IMG/VR virus record: IMGVR_UViG_3300030106_006575
Direction: 5' to 3' (one strand)
DNA from: an uncultured virus (IMG/VR IMGVR_UViG_3300030106_006575)
Taxonomy: Duplodnaviria > Heunggongvirae > Uroviricota > Caudoviricetes
Length of the DNA stretch: 44,682 nt
Below, in pieces: positions 6,363 through 38,982 of the stretch. The notes below the pieces were generated by a model. It was not told the origin of the DNA. It was given only the letters and a program-made list of their open reading frames with translations, and did not search any database. The stretch's first letter is position 1, and each line of letters starts with the position of its first letter. Both the position numbers and the translations under genes were made by a program.

Positions 6363-6372
6363 GAGATAATAG

Positions 6373-9300
6373 ATGGCTACTTTAATAATCGATGAGGTAA
6401 TCAGATATACCGATAGGGTCGAAGTGTTTGTAAAAGTTCACGAGACTTCAGGAACGGGCATCCTTGCCAACACTACTAACATTAATGAGCTAATCCCAGG
6501 CGACCTTGACCAATCTGCCCAATTCCCATCAACAGATGATATACTGGGATATGTGAGTTACAATGTTTCTGTATCTACCATACCATCTTTTTTCGCGCCC
6601 GCAGGATTTACACCGCCTAGTTTAACTACGAATACAACAAACTGGGCTGTTATCGATCCTGGTAGCCCTGCTATTCCTCCGAATCAAGCAACTACAGTTG
6701 GCTATAGTCCCTCTGGGGCCCCAATACAAGAGATTCCTTATCCTATGGTATCAGTGGATAGTCCGGTCGGCCCCACGGTTAGCGAATCGGGTTATCTTGA
6801 GGTTGTAGTGACACCAGACATTAATTTTGGACAACTACAAGAAGATTATGGATTTACGATACCTCCTAATCTTGTTCCTTCTCTCAAAGCAAATCTTTTA
6901 AATCTTTCGCCTGTAGCAATCCAGGTTGTTGTTAACGGATTGCCTGTAATCAATAAATATGTTTATACAGATAATTCAAGTGGGCAGATTTACAATGGTC
7001 CTGTCCATTTTCATCCTACTAGTGGGTATATGGCAGGAGCAGTACACACGAGTCAGCCACACGCTTCTCTTACTAGACAGATAATACCAGATATCACGAT
7101 TAAGGATCACACCATAAAAGACGGCATTTTGGGTTTAGACCTTGGAGCTGCCTTAAATATGCATCCTGAAGATGTTTTGGAAAATCTAGGCAATACTACC
7201 GCCGGAAATGCAATAACATACTCACATATCTCGGAGCCTTTAGAATCTAAGCTTCCAGACGGTAAATCTAGATTTTTGTTTTATGCAGATTATCCTAGAT
7301 TGGTGAGATCTGTTAGTCGATACCCCGGCTTTAGCGACATGATGATATATGACTCGGCACTCATCAAAAGTCTAAAAATCTTCCGTTCCAGGGGTACGGA
7401 TAGTACGAACTTGACGCCACTTGGAGTCAGCGTTGTTAGCGATGATACTATGGAAAATCATATAGACGATAGGCAGTTAGTGATTTCTTCGGCTGACAGA
7501 GGCGCCCAAAACCAATCAATGGGTTCGAATATAACAATGCGGTCTTCCAAAGGAAAGCTTGTAGCTGCCAATAGATCAGTAGATAAGAATCTTGACGGAA
7601 GCTTGGAGACTTTGGTCGGATCGATCCAGGAAATAAGCGCTGCCAATCTTCAAAGTTACCGGATATTTTCCGTTGTTGATCACGAGATATCAGAGTTTAC
7701 GAATGGTAAGTATCGATACATACTAGAAATGGAAACAATAGATCCAACCATTCTTTATCTGAATTCAAAACTAAGTTCTATGTGTGCCGTAAAAGACCAA
7801 CTGGAGGATCTTGTAAACTACACTGAAACCTTTCCTGTTTTTGATTATTTGAATAGAAGCTACACTAACAGCTATATGACAAACCACTCTAATACTCACA
7901 ATATCACAATCAACAATGCCATAATTGAAATCTTGGATCTGATAGAGGTGATAACGGGTACGCGAGATGACATGGTGTTAAACTATTTATTGTCTGTTTC
8001 GAATACATTAACCGGCGATCCTGCTGGGCTTGCGATTCTGCTGGAAGTGATGAACTCGTTTGAAAATAAGCTTGTCACGATACTTGGTGATAACCTTGCC
8101 TCAGATAACGCGGGCAATGGTGGTAGCAGCAGTAATACCTGGATAAGTAACGTGTCTAATCCATTTTCTAATATGCTGTTTTTCGAGAAACATTTTGATT
8201 ATCTGGCAAACAAAAATGCCCCTGCAAACTTTGGGTACAACTATCTAGGACCTACATATGGACTATTTCCGATGATTGCTGGAAACACTTATATCTCCAG
8301 GCAAACACAGGAGAGCCGCAAAGTTTATACACCCGCGGGCGCCCAATCAACAGTAATTGAGGGAGCTTTAATATCTCAAGCCAAACAGAATGCTTTAAAT
8401 GCAACATCTGTTGACTATTCGTATATGACACCAGCATCCATTTTGGCTGGCTCTATAGAAATGCCACTCATCGGCGTAAACTCTCAAATATACAACATAG
8501 AGATGTATAGAGAAATAAAAGTAAGACTAATCCAAGCCAACAATGCACTGGTACAGTCTTATAGTCAGAATACTAGCTTGTCTGAAATGTCGGCAGAAAT
8601 GCTTGCTAATATTGGAGTATCTCTATATCAGACCAGTTATACCAGCGACGTAAACCAAACGTATACTGATGATACAACAAGCATTTTTGGATCGAACAAC
8701 TTTAATGAAAATAATATTGAACAAACATTCGATACAGTAAACGTCGGCATTTCTAACCCTTTTATAGCAGAGGCAACCAATATCGTGGCTTCGGCTGTTG
8801 GAAACTTAATTGCTGAGTCCGGGGTTTTCAATCCTGATAGTGTCTACAACCAGGATCAAGAAGTTCAGAATGCCGACAGTCTGGGTACAGCCACATCTGG
8901 GCTTTCGATTGAAAACTTCGACATTACAAAGCAAAATAATCTTTTAAATAATATGTCGACCACTCAGATTGCCCAGCTTCCTCTTGGGGTCAAATCCTTG
9001 GTTCAGGGCAGACAATCATTCACGCTTAAAAACTGGCTGGATCACGATAAAGACTTATTTAGAGATCCTGACCTAAGAGACATATACCGCTTTAACCAAG
9101 GTATGACAGTGAGGGTAGAATATTTAAGTGGACACGGACAAACCAGCCTTGGGCCATCGGTAAAACTTCCCCAATACAACCCTCTGAGTTCGGCTACGTT
9201 GCAACAGATACCACTGGCTAAACCAATGATAGCAAGGCTGAGAGTGATAAATATTCCAGAGATCGCAATTGGCTTCGATGATAACCTAGATGCCGACATA

Positions 9301-9438
9301 TATACGCAAAACTTTTTGATCTCAAATTTGCCGGGTGCACCCTCATTGGCAGCAACAAATATTGTTAGTAGAAGTCAGAACTTGACTAATTATGTTATGG
9401 CACAAATTAACCTTGCCACAAGCTTTGGAGCGTACTAA
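6373..9438 (+). CDS. Large hypothetical virion protein (1021 aa)
   Basis: Long ORF with AGGAG SD at 6361-6365; structural operon context. Confidence 0.5.
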   Translation: MATLIIDEVIRYTDRVEVFVKVHETSGTGILANTTNINELIPGDLDQSAQFPSTDDILGYVSYNVSVSTIPSFFAPAGFTPPSLTTNTTNWAVIDPGSPAIPPNQATTVGYSPSGAPIQEIPYPMVSVDSPVGPTVSESGYLEVVVTPDINFGQLQEDYGFTIPPNLVPSLKANLLNLSPVAIQVVVNGLPVINKYVYTDNSSGQIYNGPVHFHPTSGYMAGAVHTSQPHASLTRQIIPDITIKDHTIKDGILGLDLGAALNMHPEDVLENLGNTTAGNAITYSHISEPLESKLPDGKSRFLFYADYPRLVRSVSRYPGFSDMMIYDSALIKSLKIFRSRGTDSTNLTPLGVSVVSDDTMENHIDDRQLVISSADRGAQNQSMGSNITMRSSKGKLVAANRSVDKNLDGSLETLVGSIQEISAANLQSYRIFSVVDHEISEFTNGKYRYILEMETIDPTILYLNSKLSSMCAVKDQLEDLVNYTETFPVFDYLNRSYTNSYMTNHSNTHNITINNAIIEILDLIEVITGTRDDMVLNYLLSVSNTLTGDPAGLAILLEVMNSFENKLVTILGDNLASDNAGNGGSSSNTWISNVSNPFSNMLFFEKHFDYLANKNAPANFGYNYLGPTYGLFPMIAGNTYISRQTQESRKVYTPAGAQSTVIEGALISQAKQNALNATSVDYSYMTPASILAGSIEMPLIGVNSQIYNIEMYREIKVRLIQANNALVQSYSQNTSLSEMSAEMLANIGVSLYQTSYTSDVNQTYTDDTTSIFGSNNFNENNIEQTFDTVNVGISNPFIAEATNIVASAVGNLIAESGVFNPDSVYNQDQEVQNADSLGTATSGLSIENFDITKQNNLLNNMSTTQIAQLPLGVKSLVQGRQSFTLKNWLDHDKDLFRDPDLRDIYRFNQGMTVRVEYLSGHGQTSLGPSVKLPQYNPLSSATLQQIPLAKPMIARLRVINIPEIAIGFDDNLDADIYTQNFLISNLPGAPSLAATNIVSRSQNLTNYVMAQINLATSFGAY

Positions 9439-12400
9439 GTGAGCTTAACCAAAAAATATATTTATATACATCAGAGCAGCCAGAGTGACAACGCTGCACC
9501 AGATTCCATTCGTAATGCACTCGGGCGCGCCTGGGTTCCAACCACCACCACTGGTATGCAATATGGCTGGGAGCCGCCAGGAGGAACTCCGGAAAGACCA
9601 TTCGAAAATATTGCCTATGGACCAGTCATTAAGTGGGGAACACAACTGTTCAACGGCGTTGTCCTCCCAGCCCGCACGCAGATTTGTTCTGTAAGCCCAA
9701 GTGGGTGGATGTTTAATGATCCCGGCACTGGTCAAAGCCAGTCCACCTCCGCAGAGTATTGTACTCTAGAAGACACCTCCGGATTCACGGGCCTGCTTTG
9801 GGACCACCCATCGCCGGGGGCGGGGACTTATTGGAATTATATGTTCGATGATCATCACAGTTACGGAAACCCAATAGAGATTTTGCAGAAAATAATTAAT
9901 CATAGGCGCATGTGGTACCTTGGAGCATATATGCCGGTTGAGTATGTAGAAACATCGATGGGTGAAGATCCCTTTTTTCCGGCAGCGCATCCTTGCGGGT
10001 ATCGGTTTAATGTTTTGCCTCCAGGACAATATACAAATCCCTCTCAATACGGCCTGTGGCACAACAATGTCAACGGCACATTTGAAGATCCGCCCGGTCC
10101 AGTCAGACTATTCAAAGATTCGTGGTTTCAGATGTCAGCACCGTTCTCCAAAGGAGAATCAGCCAATTATTCGGAAGACCCAGAACAGACTTCCAGAGCG
10201 ATTAGCTCTAACGTGACGTTTAACTATAACTTCTATATGAAAGCCTATGAGCAGGTATTGGCTGGCAATACACCTTTCGGTACTGAATACGCAGCCACCT
10301 ATACGGTGACTGACGCCGAAGGAAATGAGCAGGAATTAGTCACCGGCGCCACCACCGACAGGGGCATTGGTGAGATAACAATCCCTCATTTGTATCTAAC
10401 CGTAAACTCCCCCGGTCCAGTACCATATGCACTATACTTGCAAAACAACGCTTATGACAGGTTTACAGCGTTCGCGGATTTGGTATTGAAAACCGGATAC
10501 AGAGACTTGCTTATACCAGTTAAGCAGCAACCATTTTTACAAGCCTCAAACATATATAGAACACAGTTCCCAATGGATGCTACAGTATCTTTCGGCACCG
10601 ACAGAAACACTTTTGTCGCCGACTCATTGGAAGATTCAAAAATGGATTCTGTTATGCTCCGTCGCCTATCTGAAGTTGAGGAAGGAGCCAGCCCACCCGG
10701 CAACACACTTGCTATGAACCAAGATATGACGTACTCATATTTAAGAAAATACTATGATACGATCAGCGGCGATGCAGCCAATTATGGAACAGTATTCGAA
10801 AGAAGCATACAGACTTTTGATTTCTATGATTGGGTTAAGAGTCTTCCGAATGTTCCACCTTCGTCTGTTCCTTTGCCGGAAGACCACGTTTTCTTAGGTC
10901 TCGCAAATGATTCGGCGGATATGGCTTTGAAATCTGGGCTCTATAACGTAGACTTCTCATTTTTGGCGAATCACATTATCCTGTCAGGCAAGATTAATGA
11001 AATAGCACACAAGCACTTAAGAACATATGAGCAGATGATGTTAGGGCACACCCCGCATTCTGAGACATTGGCATACCGAATATCGAAATATAGAACACAA
11101 GATATAATAGATACAACACAAGATGTTATTGGACTGGTGGCTCTTGTCGATAGCGGTCTGCTTTCTAGTGATCTTGTCAACAGTATTGCACAGGGCTTAA
11201 CCTCCGACACGTCCGCCGCCCAAGAGCTTACCACAGCCCTAAACAACCCGGATAACATAGAACAACTGTTCTCAGTATTTGACACTTTAGGCATAGAGCC
11301 CATCCAGAATGTTTGGATACCGAACTCAAATTCTATCGACATCATTGAATATGTCGACACGCAGGTTAAGTACAACCAGGGCTATACATATATGGTCAAG
11401 GCATATCAGCTTTCAGTTGGAACAGAATATTTCTATTCTAGCTATAATGTATATGATCCGGTGGTGCTTGAGGTTTCCGGCGATGAAAATGCTGCATCCC
11501 CTATAGCTGTGGCCATGACTGAGAACTACTTCGCTGGACCAATTGGAAGCGGCGCCGCGTCATCTAACTTTATCGCAGCGATGAATGCAGCATCCTGGGA
11601 TCAAATTGTCGGAAATGTTGGATACGAGATCATCACCGGCGGTGTTTTGTTCTTCTTCGGCCAATCATATACATCCGAAAGCCCTATTCTAAATATTCTG
11701 ATCAATCTAGGCGGCGGCGCCGGGATGTACGTCCCCCAAATCTACTCTTTTTTGCAAGGAAACAACGCGGCATCTGGTATTACATCGCCACCCGTGGCCA
11801 TAAGCCTAATGTCTCCGTCAATGTTTTCACCTGGCGGAATGCCCGAGATATATATCCACTATGTGATGCCAGACAATAGCCAGCCACCGCCTATTGAAAT
11901 CTACGGCGCCGCGATCACCGGCACCGGACCGCGACAATGGGTGGCCTTCTGGACGTCGCCCGCCGCAGCCGCTGGATCGTATACCCCAACTGCATGTGAC
12001 CAATTCCACGCAACAGTGCTCCAGCTGCAACAAAACATATTATACCATACAGGTCTTGCGGAAGGTCTTAACTTTGGAGCGGGCAGCACGTATGGGTCCA
12101 ACGATGTGCTTCCTGATCCCTCCAACTTGATATCGCCCGCAACGGGGGATTACGGCACAGGCGTAAATTGGGGGGTGCTACCGGTTTACAACGAAAATGG
12201 TCAGATGGCGGGCGTAGAGTATACTATGCAGCCCGGTGGAACTCCTTTTAACACTTTTTATGGTGTCGAAGACGCTGAAGATTGGCTGCTGGGTGGCTCG
12301 ACACAATCGCCCAATAGCTTCGATTTTAGCCCAGGTGGCGGGTTATATACTGAATATTCTTCAACATCTGCTGGGCTCTCTTCCGAACAAGTTTATTTGG

Positions 12401-14196
12401 GTAGCCAACTCAATATTACGGTTGGCTCAGACAGTCCGGGCTATGGTCCCGACCCGGATAGCTACGTTGGCGTGTCAGCAATAAGCACAAGCGAATTGAA
12501 CTGTCCAGATTTGGACATATGTACAAAAACTTTCTTGGTTACAACAATACCATCTTTAAAAGTTCACGAAGTTCCGTATTTTATGTGGTCAGGGAAAGTA
12601 GTGGACTCATTCCCAGTCGGACCCGACGTGGATATTGTACCTTACCGTACAGTAGAGAACGAACTTCTTTTTATGCTTGGGGCCGGTATGGGTGGGTACC
12701 GTGATTACCCGATCCCCATATTCCCCTCAGAACAACAAACATTTGCCGACTTGCTGGACTCACAGAAATCAACAGATGGAAAAGCTGAGTTCCGATCAGA
12801 TGATCCTGTGCAACTTTTTGAAATACTTAGGCTGGAAACACCGCCGAGAAGCTATGCCGATTTCGTTGTCGCTCGCAGAACAACAAAAAATACAGTCAAC
12901 CCAGATTTCGCTCACAAGAAATCAGATGCCACTTCATTCATTGAGCGATTGGAATTAAATCAGAAATATTATTATGTCTTCAGATCTGTGGATATTCACG
13001 GTCACATTTCAAACCCATCTCCAATCTATGAAATAGAAATGGTTGATTCCGGAGGGGCAACTTATCCGTTAATAAATATTTTTGAACCAGAGTTGGAACT
13101 ATCGGTCGATTCTGGCAAGAAAGCTCAACGATTAATACAAATAAGACCTGAGTATCTTCAATCTATTATTAATATGGCAGCATCCACAAATGGAAGCGGG
13201 GATACAGCCGCATCCCTAAACTCACCACAGCTTCAGACTTGCGAACAAGCTGGAGACAATATTGTGCTGGGCACGAGAGATAAAACCTTATGGGGCAAGA
13301 AATTTAAACTTCGACTGACTTCTAATGAAACTATGAGGATGTTGGATATTAATATCAATTTCAAGACAAAACTTATAGAGGATATAACTGAACAGACCGG
13401 AATTGCAAACCCTGAACTGGGCGCCCCAAGCTTTGGTACAGAATCGTCGTCCAACTATGGATCTGGGTATACCGATTCAGCAACCCCCGGACCTTGGGAT
13501 CCGATGCAGCAGTATTCGATGTATGTTGCATCATCAGCAGCTGCCACTGGATTGAACTTGACGGTCAGCCCAACCTTCGCCGGGATTGCGGCGCAGGAGT
13601 TCATAAATTTAGGGTTTACCCCAGGGCAAGTCAACCCAGATACAGGCGAGCTTTACACCTTTGATGAGACAGCGGGTACATGGACGAGCACCGGCGCCCC
13701 TCCACCTGCCGGCGGTTATGCTGGGCCTGGTTCTACTATAATACCCTTCTCAGATTTGACACTATCTGATTGGGCAGCGATTCAAGCAGCGCAAGATATG
13801 GATTATGACGTCATCTCCGGTCCTTATGGCGATTTCTGGCAAAGCACCTGGGACGCCGGCGATGTCAATGAGCTTGATTACGCTATGGACATGGCACCAC
13901 CACCCGAACCACCACCCGAACAACAAGCGCCCTATCATCGACCGCCTCCACCACCTAAACCTCCACCAACAACATCAGAAGATATACCCGACGTCGGATC
14001 ACCCGAATATAACGCATGGAAGCAACAGCAGATAGCTCAAGCGCCACCCCCCGCCAGCGGCCGCTCATCTGCCGGCTCTGGCACCGGCGGATCATCTGGC
14101 GGTTCTGGCGCGCCCACACCACCCCCCAGCGGCTCACCACCAGCTCCTAAAGGCAGCGGCGGTGGCGGCGGCGGCGGAGGCGGAGGCGGATATTAG
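9439..14196 (+). CDS. Large virion protein with FN3/Ig-like segments and a Pro/Gly low-complexity tail
   Basis: GTG start with GGAG at 9427-9430. FN3-like strands VDTQVKYNQGYTYMVKAY and LELNQKYYYVFRSVDIHGHISNPS; poly-Pro and poly-Gly C-terminus. Confidence 0.5.
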   Translation: MSLTKKYIYIHQSSQSDNAAPDSIRNALGRAWVPTTTTGMQYGWEPPGGTPERPFENIAYGPVIKWGTQLFNGVVLPARTQICSVSPSGWMFNDPGTGQSQSTSAEYCTLEDTSGFTGLLWDHPSPGAGTYWNYMFDDHHSYGNPIEILQKIINHRRMWYLGAYMPVEYVETSMGEDPFFPAAHPCGYRFNVLPPGQYTNPSQYGLWHNNVNGTFEDPPGPVRLFKDSWFQMSAPFSKGESANYSEDPEQTSRAISSNVTFNYNFYMKAYEQVLAGNTPFGTEYAATYTVTDAEGNEQELVTGATTDRGIGEITIPHLYLTVNSPGPVPYALYLQNNAYDRFTAFADLVLKTGYRDLLIPVKQQPFLQASNIYRTQFPMDATVSFGTDRNTFVADSLEDSKMDSVMLRRLSEVEEGASPPGNTLAMNQDMTYSYLRKYYDTISGDAANYGTVFERSIQTFDFYDWVKSLPNVPPSSVPLPEDHVFLGLANDSADMALKSGLYNVDFSFLANHIILSGKINEIAHKHLRTYEQMMLGHTPHSETLAYRISKYRTQDIIDTTQDVIGLVALVDSGLLSSDLVNSIAQGLTSDTSAAQELTTALNNPDNIEQLFSVFDTLGIEPIQNVWIPNSNSIDIIEYVDTQVKYNQGYTYMVKAYQLSVGTEYFYSSYNVYDPVVLEVSGDENAASPIAVAMTENYFAGPIGSGAASSNFIAAMNAASWDQIVGNVGYEIITGGVLFFFGQSYTSESPILNILINLGGGAGMYVPQIYSFLQGNNAASGITSPPVAISLMSPSMFSPGGMPEIYIHYVMPDNSQPPPIEIYGAAITGTGPRQWVAFWTSPAAAAGSYTPTACDQFHATVLQLQQNILYHTGLAEGLNFGAGSTYGSNDVLPDPSNLISPATGDYGTGVNWGVLPVYNENGQMAGVEYTMQPGGTPFNTFYGVEDAEDWLLGGSTQSPNSFDFSPGGGLYTEYSSTSAGLSSEQVYLGSQLNITVGSDSPGYGPDPDSYVGVSAISTSELNCPDLDICTKTFLVTTIPSLKVHEVPYFMWSGKVVDSFPVGPDVDIVPYRTVENELLFMLGAGMGGYRDYPIPIFPSEQQTFADLLDSQKSTDGKAEFRSDDPVQLFEILRLETPPRSYADFVVARRTTKNTVNPDFAHKKSDATSFIERLELNQKYYYVFRSVDIHGHISNPSPIYEIEMVDSGGATYPLINIFEPELELSVDSGKKAQRLIQIRPEYLQSIINMAASTNGSGDTAASLNSPQLQTCEQAGDNIVLGTRDKTLWGKKFKLRLTSNETMRMLDININFKTKLIEDITEQTGIANPELGAPSFGTESSSNYGSGYTDSATPGPWDPMQQYSMYVASSAAATGLNLTVSPTFAGIAAQEFINLGFTPGQVNPDTGELYTFDETAGTWTSTGAPPPAGGYAGPGSTIIPFSDLTLSDWAAIQAAQDMDYDVISGPYGDFWQSTWDAGDVNELDYAMDMAPPPEPPPEQQAPYHRPPPPPKPPPTTSEDIPDVGSPEYNAWKQQQIAQAPPPASGRSSAGSGTGGSSGGSGAPTPPPSGSPPAPKGSGGGGGGGGGGGY

Positions 14197-18970: not shown

Positions 18971-19291
18971 ATGAATATTACCGTAGACAAACTTAGAAAG
19001 ATTATTATAGAAGAGGTGGAAAGAGCCGAAAAATTGGATGAAGCGACATCCACTATGGAATTTCCTAAGACTTCTGGACCCAGAATGGATCTAGGCTCTA
19101 TCGAGCAACCTGTAGAACAAGACAGTCCAGAGTATAAAGACTTCCAAACATTGACAAATATGCGTGCCGGCGCAGAGTCCAAAAATATTGAAGACCCTTA
19201 TTATCAAGGCTTTCTTGATAGTGTTTCAATGGCAGCTTGGAACCTGATGAATTATTTAAGTGCAGTCGACAAATCAAAAGAAGAAGTATAA
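18971..19291 (+). CDS. Small acidic protein with variant leader (MNITVDKLRKIIIEEV); putative internal head protein
   Basis: SD GAGG; leader shared with the downstream genes. Confidence 0.6.
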   Translation: MNITVDKLRKIIIEEVERAEKLDEATSTMEFPKTSGPRMDLGSIEQPVEQDSPEYKDFQTLTNMRAGAESKNIEDPYYQGFLDSVSMAAWNLMNYLSAVDKSKEEV

Positions 19292-19294
19292 ACA

Positions 19295-19675
19295 ATGAAA
19301 ATAACAAAAACACAACTTAAGCAGATTATTAAGGAAGAACTGGAACTTCTTGAGGAAGAGAAGGGAAAACTCCCTCCTAAAGTATTTGCAAAAGCAGCAA
19401 AGATTCGCAAGGAACCTGGCAACGAGGATATGAAACAAGATCAGTCCCTTGCAATCGCAGCTGATATGTTGTTGGAGGATGGGCATACCGATATTCCTTC
19501 TGCACGTCGCAAACTAAAAACTTCTATTGAAGACGCAGCACAAATCTTGGAAGCTCTTGACCAAATGCAAGACGAGGATGAACTTCCTTCTTGGTGGATG
19601 AGCAAGATAACATTAGCCGCAGATTATTTAAATAAGTCCCGTGACTATCTTTTGACATCAGGAGAAACAGAGTGA
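19295..19675 (+). CDS. Small protein with MKITKTQLKQIIKEEL leader; putative internal head protein
   Basis: Leader motif; helical C-terminal domain ELPSWWMSKITLAADYL. Confidence 0.65.
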   Translation: MKITKTQLKQIIKEELELLEEEKGKLPPKVFAKAAKIRKEPGNEDMKQDQSLAIAADMLLEDGHTDIPSARRKLKTSIEDAAQILEALDQMQDEDELPSWWMSKITLAADYLNKSRDYLLTSGETE

Positions 19676-19719
19676 TGAAAATAACAAAAACACAACTTAA
19701 GCAGATTATCAAGGAAGAA
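19295..19719 (+). repeat. 45-nt direct repeat encoding the shared leader (19295-19339 and 19675-19719)
   Basis: atgaaaataacaaaaacacaacttaagcagattat(t/c)aaggaagaa, 44/45 identical; more diverged copies at 19896, 20215 and 20752. Confidence 0.9.
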
Positions 19720-19899
19720 TTAGATTCAATTGCAGAAAACACTGAACCAATGTTAAACATGGCAGTTGGTGACGAGATAGAGGGCCTAATAAACAGGGTT
19801 ACGAAAGCCTATAATACCACAGCCGATGAGGTTATCGCAGCAATCCAAGACAACATCCTTACGCCCGCTCAGAAAGAGGCTATAGGAACATTACAATGA
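19675..19899 (+). CDS. Small protein with MKITKTQLKQIIKEEL leader
   Basis: ATG overlaps the upstream TGA; AGGAG SD; leader motif. Confidence 0.65.
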   Translation: MKITKTQLKQIIKEELDSIAENTEPMLNMAVGDEIEGLINRVTKAYNTTADEVIAAIQDNILTPAQKEAIGTLQ

Positions 19900-20228
19900 A
19901 AATTACAAAATTACAACTCAAAGAGATTATCAAGGAAGAATTAGAAGCCATAAGCGAAGTGGAGTACGACGAGCATGGTCCGATGTACCATGAGCCTGTC
20001 GAGGGCGAGACAACCCCAGACGACGCAGAAGTGCTCGTCCCCGGGTATGGTGGTCTAGAAATAAGGCAGATAAAAAGCAAACTATTCAAAATGCTACAAC
20101 AAGCGGCACAAGATGATTCTTTGTCCACTTTTGATTCGCTTATCCAAAGCGGCGTAATGATGGCGCTTTACGAGACGCTGGCAAAACACAATACACTATC
20201 CCCGGAGGAGCAAAATGAAAATTACTAA
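19896..20228 (+). CDS. Small protein with MKITKLQLKEIIKEEL leader
   Basis: ATGA overlap with upstream gene; AGGA SD; leader motif. Confidence 0.65.
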   Translation: MKITKLQLKEIIKEELEAISEVEYDEHGPMYHEPVEGETTPDDAEVLVPGYGGLEIRQIKSKLFKMLQQAAQDDSLSTFDSLIQSGVMMALYETLAKHNTLSPEEQNENY

Positions 20229-20733
20229 AACAAGGCTCAAGGAAATCATTAAAGAAGAGCTTACAGCAGACCAAGAAGAGAGAAAAAAAGAACTCGAAGA
20301 TGAGCTAAAAGCTCTCGACCATTTGTGAGTGAAGGAAGGAAGGCTGAGTTCAGCCTTGCAAGAGAGATACGGAATCGGAAACGTCGTAGGAAAAGTTCTT
20401 TGGCACTCCTTAAATGAGAACGGCGAGATTGGGGTCTATGATATGAAGTTTGGAAACACTATTGTTCGCAACTTGTTATCTGAGGATATCAAGCCTGAAA
20501 ATATCAACGAGCACACTCACAGCCCAAGACGCGAAGATGATCCTGACCGCGTTGATGAAGACATATCAACATTGGTCGATTTGGCCAACGATCCAGAGAC
20601 AATGAAAATGCTTGCTCAAGCTTTTGTTAAGCTTGCAAAAAATATGGCTCCCGTAGCTGGAGGAGCAGGACTTATAGCTCTTGCCCAAAAGGTACTTAGC
20701 CAGCCAGCACCACAGGAAGATCCTGAAGGCTGA
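20215..20733 (+). CDS. Leader-bearing His-rich protein with in-frame TGA at codon 38; candidate selenoprotein (172 aa)
   Basis: SD GGAGGAG 20204-20210, ATG 20215, MKITKTRLKEIIKEEL..ALDHL, TGA 20326-20328, then the same frame continues as the track ORF 20329..20733, which has no SD; SECIS-like hairpin follows. Confidence 0.6.
20340..20357 (+). promoter_or_regulatory. Candidate bacterial SECIS element
   Basis: AAGGCUG-AGUU-CAGCCUU: perfect 7-bp stem starting 11 nt after the UGA, loop 18 nt after the UGA with G at position 2 followed by U. Confidence 0.6.
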
Positions 20734-20751
20734 TTTCATAAGGGATTTGAA

Positions 20752-21081
20752 ATGAAAATTACAAAAGAGAATCTAGCAAAAATCGCTATGGAAGAACTCA
20801 AAGCCGTTGTGGAGGCACGCCTCCCTCAGTCGGGCTATTCGGATCCGTTAGGCAGCGAACTGGATAAACTGATTCCTATGTTACAAAAGATGGGGATAAA
20901 AGGAAAAGATATTCCCTTGAAGCTGAGGGACTTAGCAGATCATTATGAGTCTGGCGAGTACCAAGTGGTTGGCACTGGTTCGCCGCTTCTCCCTGGTATG
21001 GAGGATTATGCGCCGTCACCCGAAGAGCACATTAGGAAAATGCAAAGATACCTTCAAAGCCTTAAGGAAGGACTTAAATAA
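20752..21081 (+). CDS. Small protein with variant leader (MKITKENLAKIAMEEL)
   Basis: AAGGGA SD; leader motif. Confidence 0.65.
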   Translation: MKITKENLAKIAMEELKAVVEARLPQSGYSDPLGSELDKLIPMLQKMGIKGKDIPLKLRDLADHYESGEYQVVGTGSPLLPGMEDYAPSPEEHIRKMQRYLQSLKEGLK

Positions 21082-21596: not shown

Positions 21597-24500
21597 TTGA
21601 AGATAGCACATATCGCGGACACTCATATCCGCAACTATAAGTATCATAAAGAGTATCGAGCAATTTTCGATCAGATTTATGACAAATTAAGAGAAGAGAA
21701 AGTTGATTACATTGTCCACTGCGGAGATCTCGCACACACAAAAACTCAACTCTCTCCTGAATATTTTGACTTGGCGACATCGTTCTTAAAGAACGTTGCC
21801 GACATTGCTCCGACCTATATTATTCTCGGGAACCACGATGGTAATCTAAAGAATGAACATAGACAAGATGCAATTACGCCAATCGCAACCGCTCTGAACC
21901 ATCCACAACTGCATCTGTTAAAAGACGCAGGCGAGACTGTGGTTGGCGATGTGGCGTTTAATGTTCTTTCCGTCTTTGACGAGGAGAACTGGGTCAAGCC
22001 ATCAGATGACGAGCGCATCAACATCGCTCTCTATCACGGCTCTGTGTCAGGGGTTAAAACAGACACAGGCTGGGTGATGACGCACGGCGACCACCCTATT
22101 GAAATTTTTGAAGGGCACGACTATGTTATGCTTGGTGACATTCATAAAACGAATCAGATCCTCGATGACGCTGGTCGCGTCCGGTATCCGGGCTCCACTG
22201 TTCAACAGAACTTTGGTGAGACAGACGATAAGGGATTCTTGCTCTGGGATATCCAGAGCAAAGAAGAGTTTACTTGCGAGCATATTGTAATTGAAAACCC
22301 CAAGCCCTTTGTAACAATAAATCTAACCCCCACCGGGCGTATGCCCAAGGGCTTGTCTGTGAAAAAGGGTTCGAGATTGCGGCTCGTTTCCAATAACAAT
22401 CTGTCTCTTGAGGCGATGCGTAAAGCTATAGACGTGGCAAAGCAACGCTTCAAGCCCGATACCATCAATTTCCTTAATCGCGCCGCAGGACAACGGGGCA
22501 ATGTCGAAGAGATTACGGATCGTATTCAGCAAGATGATATGCGAAATCCCGAGATACAAGAGGAGCTTATCAGGGAATACCTTGTGGATTATCAAGCAAG
22601 CGAAGACCTAATGAAAAAGGTGCTCGATCTCAACTCTCAGTATACTAAGAAGGCCGAAGAGGAAGAAGAAATATCAAGAAACATCAAATGGTGCATTAAC
22701 GAACTGAGATGGGATAACTTATTTAATTATGGCGATGACAATCGAATTGATTTTAGCCGCTTGAACGGCACAGTCGGTATTTTCGGCAAGAACTATTCCG
22801 GAAAATCCAGTGTTATCGATAGCTTACTGTATACTTTGTTCAACACTACTTCGAAGAAAGAAAGAAAAAATGTTAACATTATCAATCAAAATAAGGAAGA
22901 AGGCTCCGGAGAGGCTATAATTACTATTGGAGATGAACAATATTATGTTTGTCGCAATTCAAAGAAGTATACCAAACGCCTTAAGGGTGTCGAGACGCTT
23001 GAAGCGAAGACAGATTTGGATTTTTTCAAGCTCGATAGCAACGGCGAAAGGATTAGTTTAAATGGACTTACACGAAACGACACAGACAAAAACATCAGGA
23101 AAGTCTTCGGATCTCTTGATGACTTCCTTCTTACTAGTTTGTCTAGCCAGCTTGATAGTCTTTCCTTTATTAGGGAAGGCAGCACAAAAAGGAAGGAAAT
23201 CTTGGCAAAGTTTCTCGACTTGGAAATCTTCGAAAAGAAATTCAAGTTAGCGAAAGAAGACGCCTCTGATATGAAAGGTGCTCTCAAGCGCCTTGAAGGC
23301 AGAGAGTACGATGCCGAGATAGAAGAAGCCGAAGAAGAGCATGTTGAGTGCGAACAGAATCTGGAACAGCAGAAGATTATATGTGAACGGTTGAAGGGAG
23401 AAGTAGAAAAGTTCGTTTCGGATATAGCCGAGATTGATACCAAAATTGAATCCATTCCGGCAGAGGTTATCGATATTGCACAAGTTAGAATCGACATTAG
23501 GGACAAACGAGCTAACTTAGCCGCAGCGCAGAAAAGGCTTAAGCAAGACAAGGGAGACTTAAAAGATAAAAAAGATCTTGTTGTAAAGATTAATGAGTTT
23601 CTTAAGAACTACGATATAGATGATCTGAAAACCAAAGAAGCAAAATCTGAGGACCTGTCATATACAATCGATGGCTTGCGTACTGATTTAAGCCAGATAG
23701 AAAAGAAGATCGCTTCTCTTGATGATCCAGGGTTCCTAAAGGGCTGCAAGTGTCTTCACGAAGCAGAGGAAGCTTTAGGGCGGAAACCTATTATTGAAGA
23801 TAAGATAGGAGAGCTTTCTAAGGAGCACGCTGACCTGGATCCTGTTGCTATTGAGAAGAACCTTGAACAATATGATTCTCTAATAACAAAGAAAGATACA
23901 ACAACTAGGTGTATTACGACTACAGAACTTAGGATTGCTCGCAATCAAAATACTATTGGTCGTTTTGGCACCGAGTTGGAAAATCTAAAATCCAAGGAGA
24001 CTTCCTACGAAGATAATAAAGAAGCTATTGAGAATCTCGAAGCTCTTCTGTCTGAAAAGAAAATCCACGGAAATGCCCTCGCCACAAAAAGAGGAGAACT
24101 TGCTACTTGCGAAGAAGAAATTATAAAATATCATAGGCTCGTTGGCTCACTAGAACAGAAGGTTCTGAATATCAAGGAACAGAAAAGCGAATATATCGAA
24201 CTCAGAGAACAATTCGCAGCTTACGACCTTTATATGCGGTGTATGCATCCTAACGGGATTGCCTATGATGTCATTAAGAAGAAGCTTCCTGTTATCAATC
24301 AGGAAATCGCAAAGGTTCTCGCGAATCTTACAACTTTTGAAGTCCTCTTTGAAGAGGATGGAAATAAGCTTGATATTCTCATCAAGCATCCGAAGCACGA
24401 ACCTCGTCCGCTCTCGATGGCTTCGGGTGCCGAGAAGACGATGGCTGCAATGGCCATCCGACTTGCTTTCTTGGCAGTGTCCAATCTACCCGCCAGCAAT

Positions 24501-24692
24501 ATTATGGTATTAGATGAACCCGGCACTGCACTGGACGAGGAACACTTACAATCATTTACCCAGCTTTTGGATATGGTAAAGGTGCATTTTAAAACGATCC
24601 TTCTGATATCTCATTTGGATTCTTTGAAAGATGTTGTCGATATGACCCTTGACATTTCAAAAAAATCGGGTTATGCTTACATCAGCCAGTAA
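21597..24692 (+). CDS. Fused SbcD/Mre11 (gp47-like) phosphoesterase and SbcC/Rad50 (gp46-like) ABC ATPase
   Basis: ADTH, CGDL, GNHD, YHG, GDIH; Walker A GKNYSGKS; coiled coil; signature ASGAEK; Walker B IMVLDEP; ISH loop; TTG start with AAGGGG SD. Confidence 0.92.
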   Translation: MKIAHIADTHIRNYKYHKEYRAIFDQIYDKLREEKVDYIVHCGDLAHTKTQLSPEYFDLATSFLKNVADIAPTYIILGNHDGNLKNEHRQDAITPIATALNHPQLHLLKDAGETVVGDVAFNVLSVFDEENWVKPSDDERINIALYHGSVSGVKTDTGWVMTHGDHPIEIFEGHDYVMLGDIHKTNQILDDAGRVRYPGSTVQQNFGETDDKGFLLWDIQSKEEFTCEHIVIENPKPFVTINLTPTGRMPKGLSVKKGSRLRLVSNNNLSLEAMRKAIDVAKQRFKPDTINFLNRAAGQRGNVEEITDRIQQDDMRNPEIQEELIREYLVDYQASEDLMKKVLDLNSQYTKKAEEEEEISRNIKWCINELRWDNLFNYGDDNRIDFSRLNGTVGIFGKNYSGKSSVIDSLLYTLFNTTSKKERKNVNIINQNKEEGSGEAIITIGDEQYYVCRNSKKYTKRLKGVETLEAKTDLDFFKLDSNGERISLNGLTRNDTDKNIRKVFGSLDDFLLTSLSSQLDSLSFIREGSTKRKEILAKFLDLEIFEKKFKLAKEDASDMKGALKRLEGREYDAEIEEAEEEHVECEQNLEQQKIICERLKGEVEKFVSDIAEIDTKIESIPAEVIDIAQVRIDIRDKRANLAAAQKRLKQDKGDLKDKKDLVVKINEFLKNYDIDDLKTKEAKSEDLSYTIDGLRTDLSQIEKKIASLDDPGFLKGCKCLHEAEEALGRKPIIEDKIGELSKEHADLDPVAIEKNLEQYDSLITKKDTTTRCITTTELRIARNQNTIGRFGTELENLKSKETSYEDNKEAIENLEALLSEKKIHGNALATKRGELATCEEEIIKYHRLVGSLEQKVLNIKEQKSEYIELREQFAAYDLYMRCMHPNGIAYDVIKKKLPVINQEIAKVLANLTTFEVLFEEDGNKLDILIKHPKHEPRPLSMASGAEKTMAAMAIRLAFLAVSNLPASNIMVLDEPGTALDEEHLQSFTQLLDMVKVHFKTILLISHLDSLKDVVDMTLDISKKSGYAYISQ

Positions 24693-30190: not shown

Positions 30191-30998
30191 TAAAAAAAGA
30201 AATACCGCTTTTTTGTACGAAACGTTAATCAAAGAATTAACAAAATGTGTTGTTCACAAAGACGATAAGAGGAAAGAGTTTATTGTTAATACGATGAGAC
30301 AATATTTCAATTCTAACGCTCCTCTCGGAAAAGAACTTAGAATATATCGCGATCTCAATGAGACAACCGGTGTGGATCTATATACAGCCGAAAGATTGCT
30401 GTCCGAATCCAAAAAAGATTTTATTTCTATGGACAGAAAACAGGTATTTAATCTGCAAACAAATTTGATAAACGAGATTAATAAAGTACTAGGAAAAGGA
30501 GTTTTTAATAACTTCGTCCCAAACTATAAAAGCTTGGCTACGATCTATCAGATCTTCTTGGATGATAACAGTACAAAGGAACTAATCCTGCTTGAAAGAA
30601 GAGTTCTAACAGGAATGGTATCGAAAGATGAAAAAGCACCATCCAAGGATATGCCGCACGTTAATAACCTGACCCTTACCACATTTATTAAAAACTATAA
30701 TAACAAATACTCAGAAACTATTTCTGAAGAACAGCAGAAGCTTTTAAACAAATATATTTTATCCTTCTCCGATAACGGACTTGAACTCAAAGCATACTTG
30801 AATGAAGAAATATCAAGATTGAAAGAAGAAGTGAAACTCATACAAGAACAAGAAGACCTTTCAGGCGATGAAGACTTGAAAGGAAGATTTGGCGAACTCG
30901 AAAGCTTGCTGGAGTCGTTTGGCAACCATAAGGTCGACCAGAAGATGATAACCAAAGTTTTAAAAATACAAAAGCTTGTTAAGGAGAACCATGAGTAA
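30174..30998 (+). CDS. Hypothetical helical protein in the head module
   Basis: 274-aa ORF between portal and protease, overlapping both neighbours. Confidence 0.6.
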   Translation: MKFKHNKKRNTAFLYETLIKELTKCVVHKDDKRKEFIVNTMRQYFNSNAPLGKELRIYRDLNETTGVDLYTAERLLSESKKDFISMDRKQVFNLQTNLINEINKVLGKGVFNNFVPNYKSLATIYQIFLDDNSTKELILLERRVLTGMVSKDEKAPSKDMPHVNNLTLTTFIKNYNNKYSETISEEQQKLLNKYILSFSDNGLELKAYLNEEISRLKEEVKLIQEQEDLSGDEDLKGRFGELESLLESFGNHKVDQKMITKVLKIQKLVKENHE

Positions 30999-31920: not shown

Positions 31921-31950
31921 CGGGCGGGTAGCGCCCGCTATTTTTGTTTT
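31921..31950 (+). terminator. Terminator-like hairpin immediately upstream of the protease SD
   Basis: CGGGCG-GGTAG-CGCCCG then CTATTTTTGTTTT. Confidence 0.65.
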
Positions 31951-31960
31951 GGAGATTAAT

Positions 31961-32575
31961 ATGGGAAAACAACTTTTAAGAGAATATTACGCCTTGTGTG
32001 AAGGAGGGGTCTGCCAAGACCTTTTGTCTGAGCAAGAAAAGAAAGATATGGCTTCTGGAAAGAAGTTCTACATGACTGGTTGTATGCAGAAGTTTGATAC
32101 CCCAAACGGAAATGGAAGAGTTTATTCCAAGAACATTCTCCAAAGAGAAGTCGAAAACTACTGGAAGCTTGTCAAGGAACGCCGCGCCCTTGGCGAGCTT
32201 GACCATCCAGATGATTCGGTGATCAATCTAAAGAATGCTTCTCACCTTGTCATTGACATGTGGTGGGATGGCGAAGCCTTAATGGGTAAAGTTGAGATTC
32301 TTGATACTCCATCTGGGCAAATTTTAAAACAACTTGCTAATTCAGGAGTCACTCTAGGTATTTCTTCTCGTGGGCTTGGCTCGGTTAGAGAAGAGAGGGG
32401 CACAACAATCGTTGAGGATGATTTCCAACTAATTTGTTTTGACTTCGTTTCAGAGCCTTCAACACCCGGTGCCTTTATGCATACAAAGAAAAGTATGTAT
32501 GAACACAAAGAACCAAACATTTTTACAAAAGCAGATAAGCTTTATAGATCGTTAAACGATATCTTGAGAGATTAG
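31961..32575 (+). CDS. gp21: Prohead core protease (T4 gp21-like)
   Basis: NGNGRVY, ALGELDHP, ILDTPSG, GISSRGLGS, DFVSEPSTPGA; GGAG SD at 31951-31954. Confidence 0.93.
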   Translation: MGKQLLREYYALCEGGVCQDLLSEQEKKDMASGKKFYMTGCMQKFDTPNGNGRVYSKNILQREVENYWKLVKERRALGELDHPDDSVINLKNASHLVIDMWWDGEALMGKVEILDTPSGQILKQLANSGVTLGISSRGLGSVREERGTTIVEDDFQLICFDFVSEPSTPGAFMHTKKSMYEHKEPNIFTKADKLYRSLNDILRD

Positions 32576-38950: not shown

Positions 38951-38982
38951 TCATAATTTAAACAAAAAAGGAGGTGATAAAA

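What the first reader, a model, noticed from the sequence alone, without database searches (positions are those of the whole stretch)
20204..20733. Candidate phage-encoded selenoprotein: in-frame TGA plus SECIS-like hairpin in a leader-tagged protein
Seen: SD GGAGGAG and ATG 20215 begin a family leader (MKITKTRLKEIIKEEL) that reaches TGA after only 37 codons (..ALDHL-TGA). The frame then stays open for 134 more codons (VKEGRLSSAL..WHSLNENGEIGVYDMKFG..EHTH..). The GTG at 20329 has no SD. A perfect stem AAGGCUG/CAGCCUU with loop AGUU starts 11 nt after the UGA. Established: SelB-bound bacterial SECIS elements lie inside the CDS just 3' of UGA (about 11 nt to the upper stem in E. coli fdhF) with a G, often GU, at the start of a small apical loop. 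Inference: UGA38 is decoded as selenocysteine, giving a 172-aa protein whose H-x-U, HSL and HxH residues could form a metal or redox site. From memory (unverified), T4-like phage proteins with H-x-C..H(T/S)LxExG..YDxxF..ExHxH exist, which would place Cys opposite this UGA. A late, possibly virion-packaged selenoprotein relying on host Sec machinery would be very unusual; termination would also give a selenium-dependent 37-aa short form.
Basis: partly seen in the sequence, partly recalled or inferred. Interest (0 to 1): 0.92.

Follow-up and report, generated by a model that had tools for sequence, protein, structure and literature searches.

The report
Ocean phage gene encoding likely selenoprotein
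A small gene of an uncultured ocean phage related to T4 has a "stop" codon in its middle that is kept in every relative examined and is followed by the RNA hairpin bacteria use to insert selenocysteine, so it most likely encodes a selenium-containing protein, which I found reported for no bacteriophage.

Summary
ATG 20215, in-frame TGA 20326-20328, an open frame to 20733, and the hairpin AAGGCUG-AGUU-CAGCCUU 11 nt after the UGA are all present.

The selenocysteine reading is supported by sequence comparison:
- In 96 of 96 distinct relatives with both gene ends visible, the internal codon is TGA. The same genes end in TGA 61, TAA 32 or TAG 3.
- Five subfamilies carry five different hairpin sequences at the same place. 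The loop starts 18-21 nt after UGA and contains G.
- Within the window's subfamily the stem shows compensatory changes (70 distinct rows; 0 of 500 shuffles reach the score).
- Four distant homologs have Cys at the aligned column, one confirmed as TGT, in a motif H-x-[U/C]-x-x-[H/E]...WH...HxH.
- Three subfamilies, and five members of the window's own, have no start codon directly after TGA.
- "Trp" in the database forms is TGA wherever I could see matching DNA, probably because the gene callers used code 4.

The phage carries no Sec machinery and its host is unknown, so nothing is proven biochemically. The protein bears the N-terminal leader shared by five neighbouring genes. This scan earlier noted another phage selenoprotein candidate on unrelated DNA.

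The parts
20203..20209 (+). Shine-Dalgarno GGAGGAG, 5 nt before the start codon
   Evidence: sequence
20215..20733 (+). Whole gene: 172 codons read through UGA38, plus the terminal TGA stop
20215..20262 (+). N-terminal leader MKITKTRLKEIIKEEL, shared with the neighbouring genes
   Evidence: the same leaders cluster around the homologous gene in the complete relative G001
20263..20319 (+). Lys/Glu-rich helical linker (residues 17-35), variable in length and sequence among relatives
   Evidence: upstream translations; helix 5-32
20320..20322 (+). His36 (CAT), two residues before the UGA. It is invariant in all subfamilies although the linker before it is not conserved
   Evidence: invariant column H; CA invariant at columns 7-8
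20326..20328 (+). In-frame UGA, codon 38, proposed selenocysteine codon
   Evidence: TGA in 96 of 96 distinct relatives; Cys in P0162, P0170, P0182, P0169
20329..20339 (+). 11-nt spacer between UGA and hairpin (GUGAAGGAAGG). Its first codon, GTG, is the start used by standard gene callers for the 134-aa ORF
   Evidence: P0002
20340..20357 (+). SECIS-like hairpin: 5' arm 20340-20346, loop AGUU 20347-20350, 3' arm 20351-20357
   Evidence: 93.5% of cells paired; compensatory changes at 3 of 7 pairs; 0 of 500 shuffles reach the covariation score
20320..20520 (+). Conserved domain, residues 36-102, predicted as a small five-stranded SH3-like beta-barrel whose first strand (36-44) spans the UGA. Conserved His64 (20404-20406), His100 (20512-20514), His102 (20518-20520)
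   Evidence: conservation; AlphaFold2: blocks 41-100 pLDDT 86-95; weak SH3/KOW/Tudor-like matches from model residue 34-40 on
20560..20730 (+). C-terminal helical extension (residues 116-172). Among sequences I read it is shared only with P0003, P0004 and the window-identical P0002; other relatives stop near residue 115 or have unrelated tails
20731..20733 (+). Terminal stop TGA; the next gene's SD and ATG follow at 20752
18971..21081 (+). Cluster of six consecutive small genes with the same kind of N-terminal leader: 18971-19291, 19295-19675, 19675-19899, 19896-20228, 20215-20733, 20752-21081
31949..32575 (+). Head maturation protease (phrog_207, E 1.5e-54), the candidate enzyme for clipping the leaders

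Best explanation
Gene 20215-20733 is one cistron, and its UGA38 is decoded as selenocysteine.

Proposed mechanism: the 18-nt hairpin 11 nt downstream acts as a bacterial-type, in-ORF SECIS. It recruits the host's SelB carrying Sec-tRNA(Sec) to the ribosome paused at UGA. The product is a 172-aa protein with four parts: an N-terminal leader, a Lys/Glu-rich helical linker, a small SH3-like beta-barrel whose first strand carries His36-x-Sec38, and a C-terminal helical tail.

Shown by sequence comparison:
- the UGA is invariant;
- coding constraint runs across it;
- Cys occupies the column in distant homologs;
- a hairpin is kept at the same distance by compensatory change.

Inferred:
- SelB dependence and a Sec-competent host, because the phage carries none of selA, selB, selC or selD;
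- Sec38 together with His36, Glu41 (His in other subfamilies), His64, His100 and His102 forms a metal or redox centre;
- the leader loads the protein into the prohead and is clipped by the gp21-like protease, as in T4 internal proteins;
- when Sec-tRNA is limiting, termination gives a 37-aa leader peptide, and the adjacent AUG/GUG of this subfamily may allow an untagged, Sec-less form.
For: (1) TGA invariance.
- Window plus 28 of 28 IMG/VR loci have TGA.
- 78 of 78 informative metagenome loci have TGA; 80 were kept and 2 are cut before the site.
- 7 of 7 family loci of two further subfamilies have TGA.
- Counted as distinct genes with both ends visible, 96 of 96 are TGA, while their terminal stops are TGA 61, TAA 32 and TAG 3.
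- In the window, 39 ORFs that I picked by hand as the likely genes (the two halves of this gene counted separately) end in TAA 25, TGA 8 and TAG 6. No other real + strand gene has an internal TGA.

(2) Constraint across the UGA.
- His at position -2 is invariant in all subfamilies although the upstream linker is not conserved.
- The codon after TGA is not a start codon in three subfamilies (CTG or CTT, GCG, TTT) or in five members of the window's own (CTA x3, ACA, ATA).
- The AlphaFold2 model runs strand 36-44 through the site.

(3) Cys homologs.
- P0162, P0170, P0182 and P0169 carry H-x-C-x-x-H at the aligned column.
- L035 confirms TGT.

(4) Hairpin.
- In 70 distinct rows of the window's subfamily, 93.5% of cells pair.
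- Pair 29-42: AU 37, GC 30, CG 1, GU 1. Pair 30-41: GC 60, UA 8, AU 1, GU 1. Pair 31-40: CG 66, UG 2, UA 1.
- 0 of 500 shuffles reach the score, and all slid controls are lower.
- The loop codons AGT-TCA almost never vary.
- The other subfamilies have unrelated hairpin sequences at the same place: GGAAGAA-GGG-UUCUUCC, AAGCGGAA-GGA-UUCUGCUU, AGUGGAA-GUC-UUCCACU, and UUGGG-GGUC-CCCAA or ACUUGGG-GGUCA-CCCAAGU.
- The background rate of such a hairpin after TGA is below 2%.
- The one Cys-form DNA lacks it.

(5) Fit to described bacterial SECIS.
- Passages of PMC4607533 describe a 5-6-bp hairpin a few nt after UGA with an invariant loop G, resembling the minimal E. coli SECIS.
- The field's criteria are in-frame TGA, at least two Cys homologs and a downstream stem-loop (passages of PMC1976440).

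(6) No suppressor route on the phage.
- The complete 186-kb relative has only tRNA Lys, Arg, Met, Leu and Ile.
- The sub-threshold tRNA-Sec hits that I checked (6 of 7) are ordinary tRNAs: four tRNA-Leu, one Asn, one Glu.
Against: - There is no biochemical evidence of any kind.
- The host is unknown.
- selD, selA, SelB-wing_3 and tRNA-Sec are absent from 5 of 5 large related contigs, one of them estimated 100% complete, so everything depends on the host.
- The nearest cultured phages by large terminase infect a Flavobacterium (46.5% identity) and Microcystis (43.6%). A 2006 survey did not detect the Sec-decoding trait in Bacteroidetes or Cyanobacteria (passage of PMC1794560).
- The hairpin is small. 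For the single window sequence its fold energy is not unusual (z = -1.0).
- Cys forms are the minority: 4 of 19 site-spanning database proteins. Most described selenoprotein families have many Cys homologs.
- Absence of the hairpin in Cys forms rests on a single DNA locus (L035).
- In the window's subfamily an ATG or GTG follows the TGA in 93 of 98 loci, so separate initiation of the downstream part cannot be excluded there.
- No Rfam family matches the hairpin.
Confidence: 0.8

Rival explanations
1. SelB-independent read-through. UGA38 is read at some efficiency by an ordinary tRNA (near-cognate tRNA-Trp, as in the coat read-through protein of phage Q-beta, recalled), and the hairpin stimulates it. 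The full-length protein would then carry Trp or another standard residue.
For: - The UGA is conserved and coding continues across it, which this model also explains.
- The phage has no Sec machinery.
- The host may lack it.
- Database translations show W, but this reflects the callers' code, not the DNA.
Against: - Homologs that avoid UGA use Cys (TGT in L035), never TGG. There were 0 TGG among 96 distinct genes and all other loci read.
- The column sits in an H-x-[U/C]-x-x-H motif where Trp is not an equivalent of Cys.
- The hairpin's size, distance and loop G match described SECIS elements.
- I know of no bacterial hairpin-stimulated UGA read-through other than SECIS (recalled, not searched).
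Confidence: 0.1
2. Two cistrons. A 37-aa leader peptide ends at an ordinary TGA stop, and the 134-aa protein starts at the abutting GTG by termination-reinitiation. The hairpin would serve coupling or mRNA stability.
For: - ATG or GTG follows TGA in 93 of 98 loci of the window's subfamily.
- Gene callers start 147 database proteins after the site and list 37-aa leader-only ORFs (P0167, P0179).
- The window has other abutting stop-start junctions at 5271-5276 and 9436-9441.
Against: - Those other junctions use TAA. This site is TGA in 96 of 96, while the same genes' real stops vary.
- Three subfamilies have no start codon directly after TGA, and two of them have none before the conserved residues of the barrel.
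- His at -2 is invariant although it would lie in a different protein.
- Cys forms are single uninterrupted ORFs.
- There is no SD before GTG 20329.
Confidence: 0.06
3. Artefact or decay: a sequencing or assembly error, a recent nonsense mutation (pseudogene), or a genome-wide reassignment of TGA.
For: None beyond the bare presence of an in-frame stop.
Against: - The same TGA appears in contigs of independent studies and in about 100 relatives.
- The downstream domain is strongly conserved.
- TGA ends 8 of the 39 ORFs I picked as likely genes in the window and interrupts no other real gene, so the phage uses the standard code.
Confidence: 0.01

Closest known systems
Bacterial selenoprotein genes with an in-ORF SECIS read by SelB (prototype E. 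coli fdhF; the 5-6-bp 'apical' hairpins of epsilon-proteobacterial selenoprotein mRNAs, PMC4607533)
   Same: In-frame UGA, a short hairpin a few nucleotides downstream inside the coding sequence, G in the loop, covariation in the inner 5 pairs, and Cys in homologs at the same column.
   Different: The gene is on a phage genome that has none of selA, selB, selC or selD. The protein family is in no library I searched (Pfam, PHROGs, PDB sequences). Sec forms far outnumber Cys forms. The Sec lies in a His-rich motif rather than a CxxU/UxxC redox motif.
Selenoproteins of eukaryotic viruses (glutathione-peroxidase homologs of fowlpox and molluscum contagiosum viruses; title and abstract of PMC1802603 seen in the search listing; virus names recalled)
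   Same: A virus-encoded selenoprotein that depends on the host's Sec machinery.
   Different: Those are captured host GPx genes with eukaryotic SECIS elements. This is a bacteriophage gene with a bacterial-type SECIS and no cellular homolog found in 185,579 species genomes.
Capsid-targeting sequences of T4 internal proteins (IPI, IPII, IPIII, Alt) clipped by the gp21 prohead protease
   Same: A short shared N-terminal leader on several unrelated small proteins encoded side by side in a T4-like phage that has a gp21-like protease.
   Different: Packaging and cleavage are untested here. The leader sequence differs from T4's. No T4 internal protein is known to contain Sec.
Phage stop-codon recoding: TAG to Gln or TGA to Trp in gut phages (titles and abstracts of PMC9523058 and PMC12386605, seen in the search listing only), and UGA read-through in Q-beta coat/A1 (recalled)
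   Same: A phage gene is translated past a stop codon.
   Different: Here a single codon in a single gene is recoded, with a local RNA signal and Cys homologs. There is no suppressor tRNA on the phage, and TGA is otherwise a normal stop.

Membership tests
Bacterial-type selenoprotein gene (SelB/SECIS-dependent UGA recoding) | In-frame UGA conserved among homologs, with coding constraint on both sides | tested here: met
   96 of 96 distinct genes have TGA, against variable terminal stops. His at -2 is invariant. No start codon directly after TGA in three subfamilies.
Bacterial-type selenoprotein gene (SelB/SECIS-dependent UGA recoding) | Cys at the aligned position in homologs (at least two, the criterion of PMC1976440) | tested here: met
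   P0162, P0170, P0182 and P0169; TGT confirmed in L035. Cys forms are the minority, 4 of 19 site-spanning database proteins.
Bacterial-type selenoprotein gene (SelB/SECIS-dependent UGA recoding) | Stem-loop immediately 3' of the UGA with a G in the apical loop, kept by compensatory changes | tested here: met
   The loop starts 18-21 nt after UGA in five subfamilies. Loops are AGUU, GGG or GGA, GUC, and GGUC(A). bSECISearch itself could not be run; its numeric limits are recalled, not checked.
Bacterial-type selenoprotein gene (SelB/SECIS-dependent UGA recoding) | selA, selB, selC and selD available in the cell where the gene is expressed | not testable with these tools
   The host is unknown. 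The phage side was tested: 0 of 5 related contigs have selD, SelA, SelB-wing_3 or a tRNA-Sec above cut-off, and the complete relative has no UCA-anticodon tRNA.
Bacterial-type selenoprotein gene (SelB/SECIS-dependent UGA recoding) | Selenium actually incorporated at the UGA position | not testable with these tools
   Needs 75Se labelling or mass spectrometry.
Rfam SECIS families | Match to a curated covariance model | tested here: not met
   No SECIS family among 4 chance-level matches at E up to 10 in 20150-20800. Bacterial SECIS are short and diverse, so this weighs little.
T4-type capsid-targeted internal proteins | Shared N-terminal leader on several neighbouring small genes | tested here: met
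   Six consecutive genes at 18971-21081; the same arrangement in G001.
T4-type capsid-targeted internal proteins | Prohead protease of the gp21 type in the same genome | tested here: met
   phrog_207 head maturation protease, E 1.5e-54, at 31949-32575.
T4-type capsid-targeted internal proteins | Leader cleaved and protein found inside the head | not testable with these tools
   Needs virion proteomics.
SH3-like small beta-barrels (FeoA, KOW, Tudor, chromo) | Significant structural match | tested here: inconclusive
   Foldseek best E 0.11 (FeoA 2k5i). VIA best Z 5.7, rmsd 3.3, 64 aligned (4xi6), then many rows at Z 4-5. This shows a common fold only and gives no functional inference.

The most novel reading that the evidence does not exclude
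A widespread family of selenoproteins encoded by T4-like ocean phages. At least 306 relatives were found in one metagenome scan and 426 database proteins in one search. Each is tagged with a head-loading leader, so virions would carry a selenium-containing, His-rich metal or redox protein that may be delivered into the next host. The gene works only in Sec-decoding hosts, which makes its SECIS hairpin a host-range marker. The five hairpin types may track five host SelB specificities.
Probability: 0.45. Interest if true: 0.93.

Novelty: new variant of a known kind. Interest (0 to 1): 0.86.

Why it matters
If true, this extends selenocysteine use to bacteriophages. A virus would rely on its host's SelA, SelB, SelC and SelD and on selenium supply to complete a late protein that is probably packaged in the virion.

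- It gives a sequence-level clue to the hosts of an abundant uncultured phage group, because they must decode Sec.
- It adds a selenoprotein family with a His-rich site rather than a thiol-redox motif.
- It exposes a systematic annotation error. Standard callers split the gene (147 of the 181 database proteins I held start after the site) or translate the TGA as Trp.

It is directly testable with a reporter in a selB-plus versus selB-minus laboratory strain.

Tried and rejected
- **Trp at the site.** I first took the W in fused database proteins as refuting Sec. I rejected this after DNA of the matching subfamilies showed TGA.
- **SD-hairpin-start model.** AAGGAAGG followed by the hairpin would bring a downstream ATG or TTG (window TTG 20356) into range. 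Rejected because that codon is Gln, CTT or TTA in many relatives.
- **Other recoding sites.** No other real + strand gene of the window has an internal TGA. The abutting junctions at 5271 and 9436 are TAA. A second YTGAGTTCAR in the window (30781-30790, minus strand; 8 of 100 shuffles give 2 or more matches) and one in G001 lie in ordinary sequence.
- **Family libraries.** Pfam, PHROGs and the PDB sequence profile gave nothing for the protein. Rfam gave nothing at the hairpin. tblastn against 50,697 GenBank phage records found no match.
- **ESM Atlas.** The recoded protein was not accepted. The natural Cys form P0182 returned only unnamed viral clusters.
- **Fold searches.** Only weak SH3-like barrel matches.
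- **More Cys-form DNA.** P0170, P0169 and P0162 were not found in IMG/VR.
- **Host clues.** The scan of species genomes found only two 15-residue chance matches. No psbA on 5 related contigs.
- **RNA evidence.** One 162-nt contig from a metatranscriptome library bridges the UGA (X20). Contigs cannot show that it is RNA or how it is read, so I draw nothing from it.
- **Papers.** Searches found no report of a bacteriophage selenoprotein. The GOS selenoproteome paper has no occurrence of 'phage' in its text, and none of four family motifs occurs in its 4 supplementary files. Two older papers on the minimal SECIS were not held.
Full report
**What is in the window**

SD GGAGGAG lies at 20203-20209 and ATG at 20215. 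The leader is MKITKTRLKEIIKEEL. TGA at 20326-20328 is codon 38, and a GTG with no SD abuts it.
- The frame stays open for 134 more codons to TGA 20731-20733.
- The perfect hairpin AAGGCUG-AGUU-CAGCCUU lies at 20340-20357 and begins 11 nt after the UGA.
- Folded alone, the 61-nt stretch is not unusual (z = -1.0). Any case must therefore come from comparison.
- The window is part of an uncultured T4-like phage. It carries a large terminase, portal, a gp21-type head maturation protease and a major head protein, plus a primase, a RuvC-like resolvase and a fused SbcD-SbcC.
- The nearest cultured phages by terminase are Flavobacterium phage immuto (46.5%) and Microcystis phage Mel-JY01 (43.6%).
- No whole genome is held for the window, and it has no tRNA genes.

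**The family, and a false lead**

- The 134-aa ORF has 426 database relatives at E up to 0.01. Most are 76-81 aa and start MKEG(R/K)LSS, exactly at the window's GTG.
- A few longer ones carry the leader and show Trp opposite the UGA (...LEHKW-MKEG...).
- DNA says otherwise. All 28 IMG/VR loci and the window have TGA there.
- Of the 80 best metagenome loci (306 relatives found), 78 have TGA and 2 are cut before the site.
- The subfamilies of the W-bearing database proteins have TGA in every matching locus: P0123 (L093/094/098), P0149/P0156 (L026-L034), P0139 (L135-L139), P0157/P0159/P0181 (L141/L142) and P0115 (L103).
- The six W forms of the first list sit on contigs of 1.2 kb or less. The likely cause is metagenomic gene calling under code 4. 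This is my inference from general knowledge and is not tested.
- No TGG, TAA or TAG was seen at the site in any locus.

**Why the TGA is not an ordinary stop**

- Among 96 distinct genes whose two ends are visible, the internal codon is TGA in 96. Their terminal stops are TGA 61, TAA 32 and TAG 3.
- In the window, 39 ORFs that I picked by hand as the likely genes (the two halves of this gene counted separately) end in TAA 25, TGA 8 and TAG 6. The two other abutting stop-start junctions, at 5271 and 9436, are TAA. No other real + strand gene is interrupted by TGA. The phage therefore uses the standard code, and this one codon is special.
- The His two residues upstream of the TGA is invariant in every subfamily, although the linker before it varies freely in length and sequence.
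- In three of the four DNA-checked subfamilies outside the window's own, the codon after TGA is CTG or CTT, GCG or TTT. In five members of the window's own subfamily it is CTA (3), ACA (1) or ATA (1).
- In the GHT-TGA-LTHV and QH(Q/T)-TGA-FHH groups there is no in-frame start before conserved residues of the domain.
- The AlphaFold2 model (82-row alignment, mean pLDDT 82.3, pTM 0.46; blocks 41-100 at 86-95) runs its first beta-strand, residues 36-44, straight through the site.

**Cys homologs**

- A full phmmer scan of 1.84 billion representatives gave 63 hits at E up to 0.001.
- Four of them are uninterrupted proteins with Cys at the aligned column...SHS-C-ATH......GHS-C-ATH......GHA-C-ANH... 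and ...FHA-C-AAH... (P0162, P0170, P0182, P0169).
- P0182 is encoded in IMG/VR locus L035, where the codon is TGT.
- The family motif is H-x-[U/C]-x-x-[H/E] ... (W/H)H(S/T)L ... YD.xF ...
- Cys forms are the minority: 4 of the 19 database proteins that span the site, the other 15 being W-called. This is unusual for selenoprotein families.

**The hairpin**

- In 70 distinct 60-nt rows of the window's subfamily, 93.5% of stem cells pair. Three of seven pairs show compensatory double changes:
  - pair 29-42: AU 37, GC 30, CG 1, GU 1;
  - pair 30-41: GC 60, UA 8, AU 1, GU 1;
  - pair 31-40: CG 66, UG 2, UA 1.
- No shuffle of 500 reaches the covariation score, and every slid control is far lower.
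- Part of this covariation links a synonymous or conservative change in the Lys/Arg or Leu codon to an amino-acid change three codons later (Ala, Thr, Asp or Val). This is hard to explain by protein selection alone.
- The two Ser codons that form the loop are AGT-TCA almost without exception.
- One outlier, L096, has changed both the peptide and the RNA yet still offers a GCGG-UCG-CCGC hairpin.
- The other subfamilies have unrelated sequences that fold at the same place: GGAAGAA-GGG-UUCUUCC, AAGCGGAA-GGA-UUCUGCUU, AGUGGAA-GUC-UUCCACU, and UUGGG-GGUC-CCCAA or ACUUGGG-GGUCA-CCCAAGU. The loop begins 18-21 nt after the UGA and always contains G, usually GU.
- A strict form of such a hairpin follows fewer than 2% of TGA trinucleotides in the window or in a complete relative. 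The one Cys-form locus does not have it.
- This matches what passages of PMC4607533 describe for epsilon-proteobacterial selenoprotein mRNAs: a 5-6-bp hairpin a few nucleotides after UGA, covariation in pairs 1-5, an invariant loop G, and resemblance to the minimal E. coli SECIS.
- The gene also meets the criteria used to call new selenoprotein families in metagenomes (passages of PMC1976440).
- The numeric limits of the bSECISearch consensus, and the GGUC loop of E. coli fdhF, are recalled and were not checked here.

**What decodes it**

- Five large related contigs, one estimated complete at 186 kb, have no selD, SelA, SelB wing domain or tRNA-Sec above cut-off. The sub-threshold tRNA-Sec hits that I checked with ARAGORN (6 of 7) are ordinary tRNAs: four tRNA-Leu(UAA), one Asn and one Glu.
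- The complete relative encodes only tRNA-Lys, Arg, Met, Leu and Ile. So there is no phage suppressor, and decoding must be done by the host.
- The host is unknown. The family is absent from 185,579 species genomes, and there is no psbA on the relatives.
- The cultured phages nearest by terminase infect lineages in which a 2006 survey found no Sec-decoding trait (passage of PMC1794560). This is the main weakness of the reading.
- Marine communities as a whole use Sec widely (passages of PMC2398784 and PMC5029168).

**Errors excluded**

- Contigs from two other studies cover the site with no differing letter (X3 over 20150-20375, X6 over 20150-20643).
- A 99%-identical contig from another assembly has the same TGA-GTG (L043).

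**What the protein may be**

- Residues 36-100 are modelled as a small five-stranded barrel. It gives only weak matches to SH3-like folds such as FeoA, KOW, Tudor and chromo (best Foldseek E 0.11; best VIA Z 5.7, rmsd 3.3, 64 aligned). This says nothing about function.
- No Pfam, PHROG or PDB-sequence match exists.
- The conserved His36, Sec38, Glu41 (His elsewhere), His64, His100 and His102 suggest a metal or redox site. I could not obtain coordinates to test whether they cluster.
- The gene is the fifth of six consecutive small genes with the same N-terminal leader. The same clustering surrounds its homolog in the complete relative, and a gp21-type protease is encoded nearby.
- Because the UGA lies between the leader and the domain, only the Sec-containing read-through product would be tagged. 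Termination would release a 37-aa leader peptide.
- In the window's subfamily the adjacent AUG/GUG might permit an untagged form. These last steps are inference.

**Novelty**

- Three paper searches found selenoproteins of eukaryotic viruses but none of a bacteriophage.
- The GOS selenoproteome paper does not contain the word 'phage', and none of four family motifs occurs in its four supplementary files.
- Most subscription journals are not in the library, so a report could exist that I cannot see.
- This scan earlier noted a different candidate phage selenoprotein on unrelated DNA (e1-6055852). I did not test that note.

**Verdict**

- The selenocysteine reading is the best-supported explanation (about 0.8).
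- Hairpin-assisted read-through with a standard residue (about 0.1) and a two-cistron arrangement (about 0.06) are the rivals.
- The mechanism is a known kind. A phage-borne, leader-tagged, His-rich selenoprotein family is a new variant of it.

Noticed in passing
window 18971-21081: Six consecutive small genes start with nearly the same leader (MNITVDKLRKIIIEEV, then MKITKTQLKQIIKEEL twice, MKITKLQLKEIIKEEL, MKITKTRLKEIIKEEL, MKITKENLAKIAMEEL) but have unrelated bodies. The complete relative G001 has two leader types (MKITKSQLKQIIKEEL and MKKLFENFRNFVNE) in one cluster, and there the homolog of this gene carries the second type.
   Followed up: partly
window 3-14196: Four very large ORFs (1756, 362, 1021 and 1585 aa) have no PHROG match. 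Two junctions (5271-5276 TAA-ATG, 9436-9441 TAA-GTG) are in-frame abutting stop-start pairs with long open frames on both sides. Whether these are separate genes or read-through was not examined.
   Followed up: no
window 21597-24692: A single 1031-aa ORF joins an SbcD-like nuclease (residues 1-362) to an SbcC-like ATPase (186-1030). These are two separate proteins (gp47 and gp46) in T4 (recalled).
   Followed up: no
window 38974-40851: The major head protein ORF is 625 aa, but the best-scoring stretch of its match to the head-protein profile covers only residues 356-603. This suggests a long N-terminal extension or fused domain.
   Followed up: no
database proteins P0007, P0027, P0100, P0103, P0115, P0121, P0123, P0138, P0139, P0149, P0150, P0156, P0157, P0159, P0181: Public protein collections hold translations with Trp where the DNA of matching loci has TGA. 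Those of the first list sit on contigs of 1.2 kb or less, probably because of code-4 gene calling. Such entries can mislead Sec/Cys/Trp comparisons.
   Followed up: partly
L096:457-516: One relative has changed the peptide after the UGA (KLRSPL instead of KLSSAL) and the RNA, yet still offers a 4-bp GCGG-UCG-CCGC hairpin at the same place.
   Followed up: no
window 20351: The only contig from a metatranscriptome library that covers the site (X20, 162 nt, depth 3.1) has T for C at the first base of the 3' arm. This turns the closing G-C pair into G-U and Ser into Leu. It may be a strain variant or an error.
   Followed up: no
P0152 (residues 6404-6442): A 6629-aa database protein has a weak match (E 4.7e-6) to the core of the domain. 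Not examined.
   Followed up: no
window 20346-20375: Logan contigs of two runs break within the hairpin region with a 30-nt overlap, and summed depth doubles there. This is as expected if this nearly invariant stretch is shared by co-occurring related phages.
   Followed up: no
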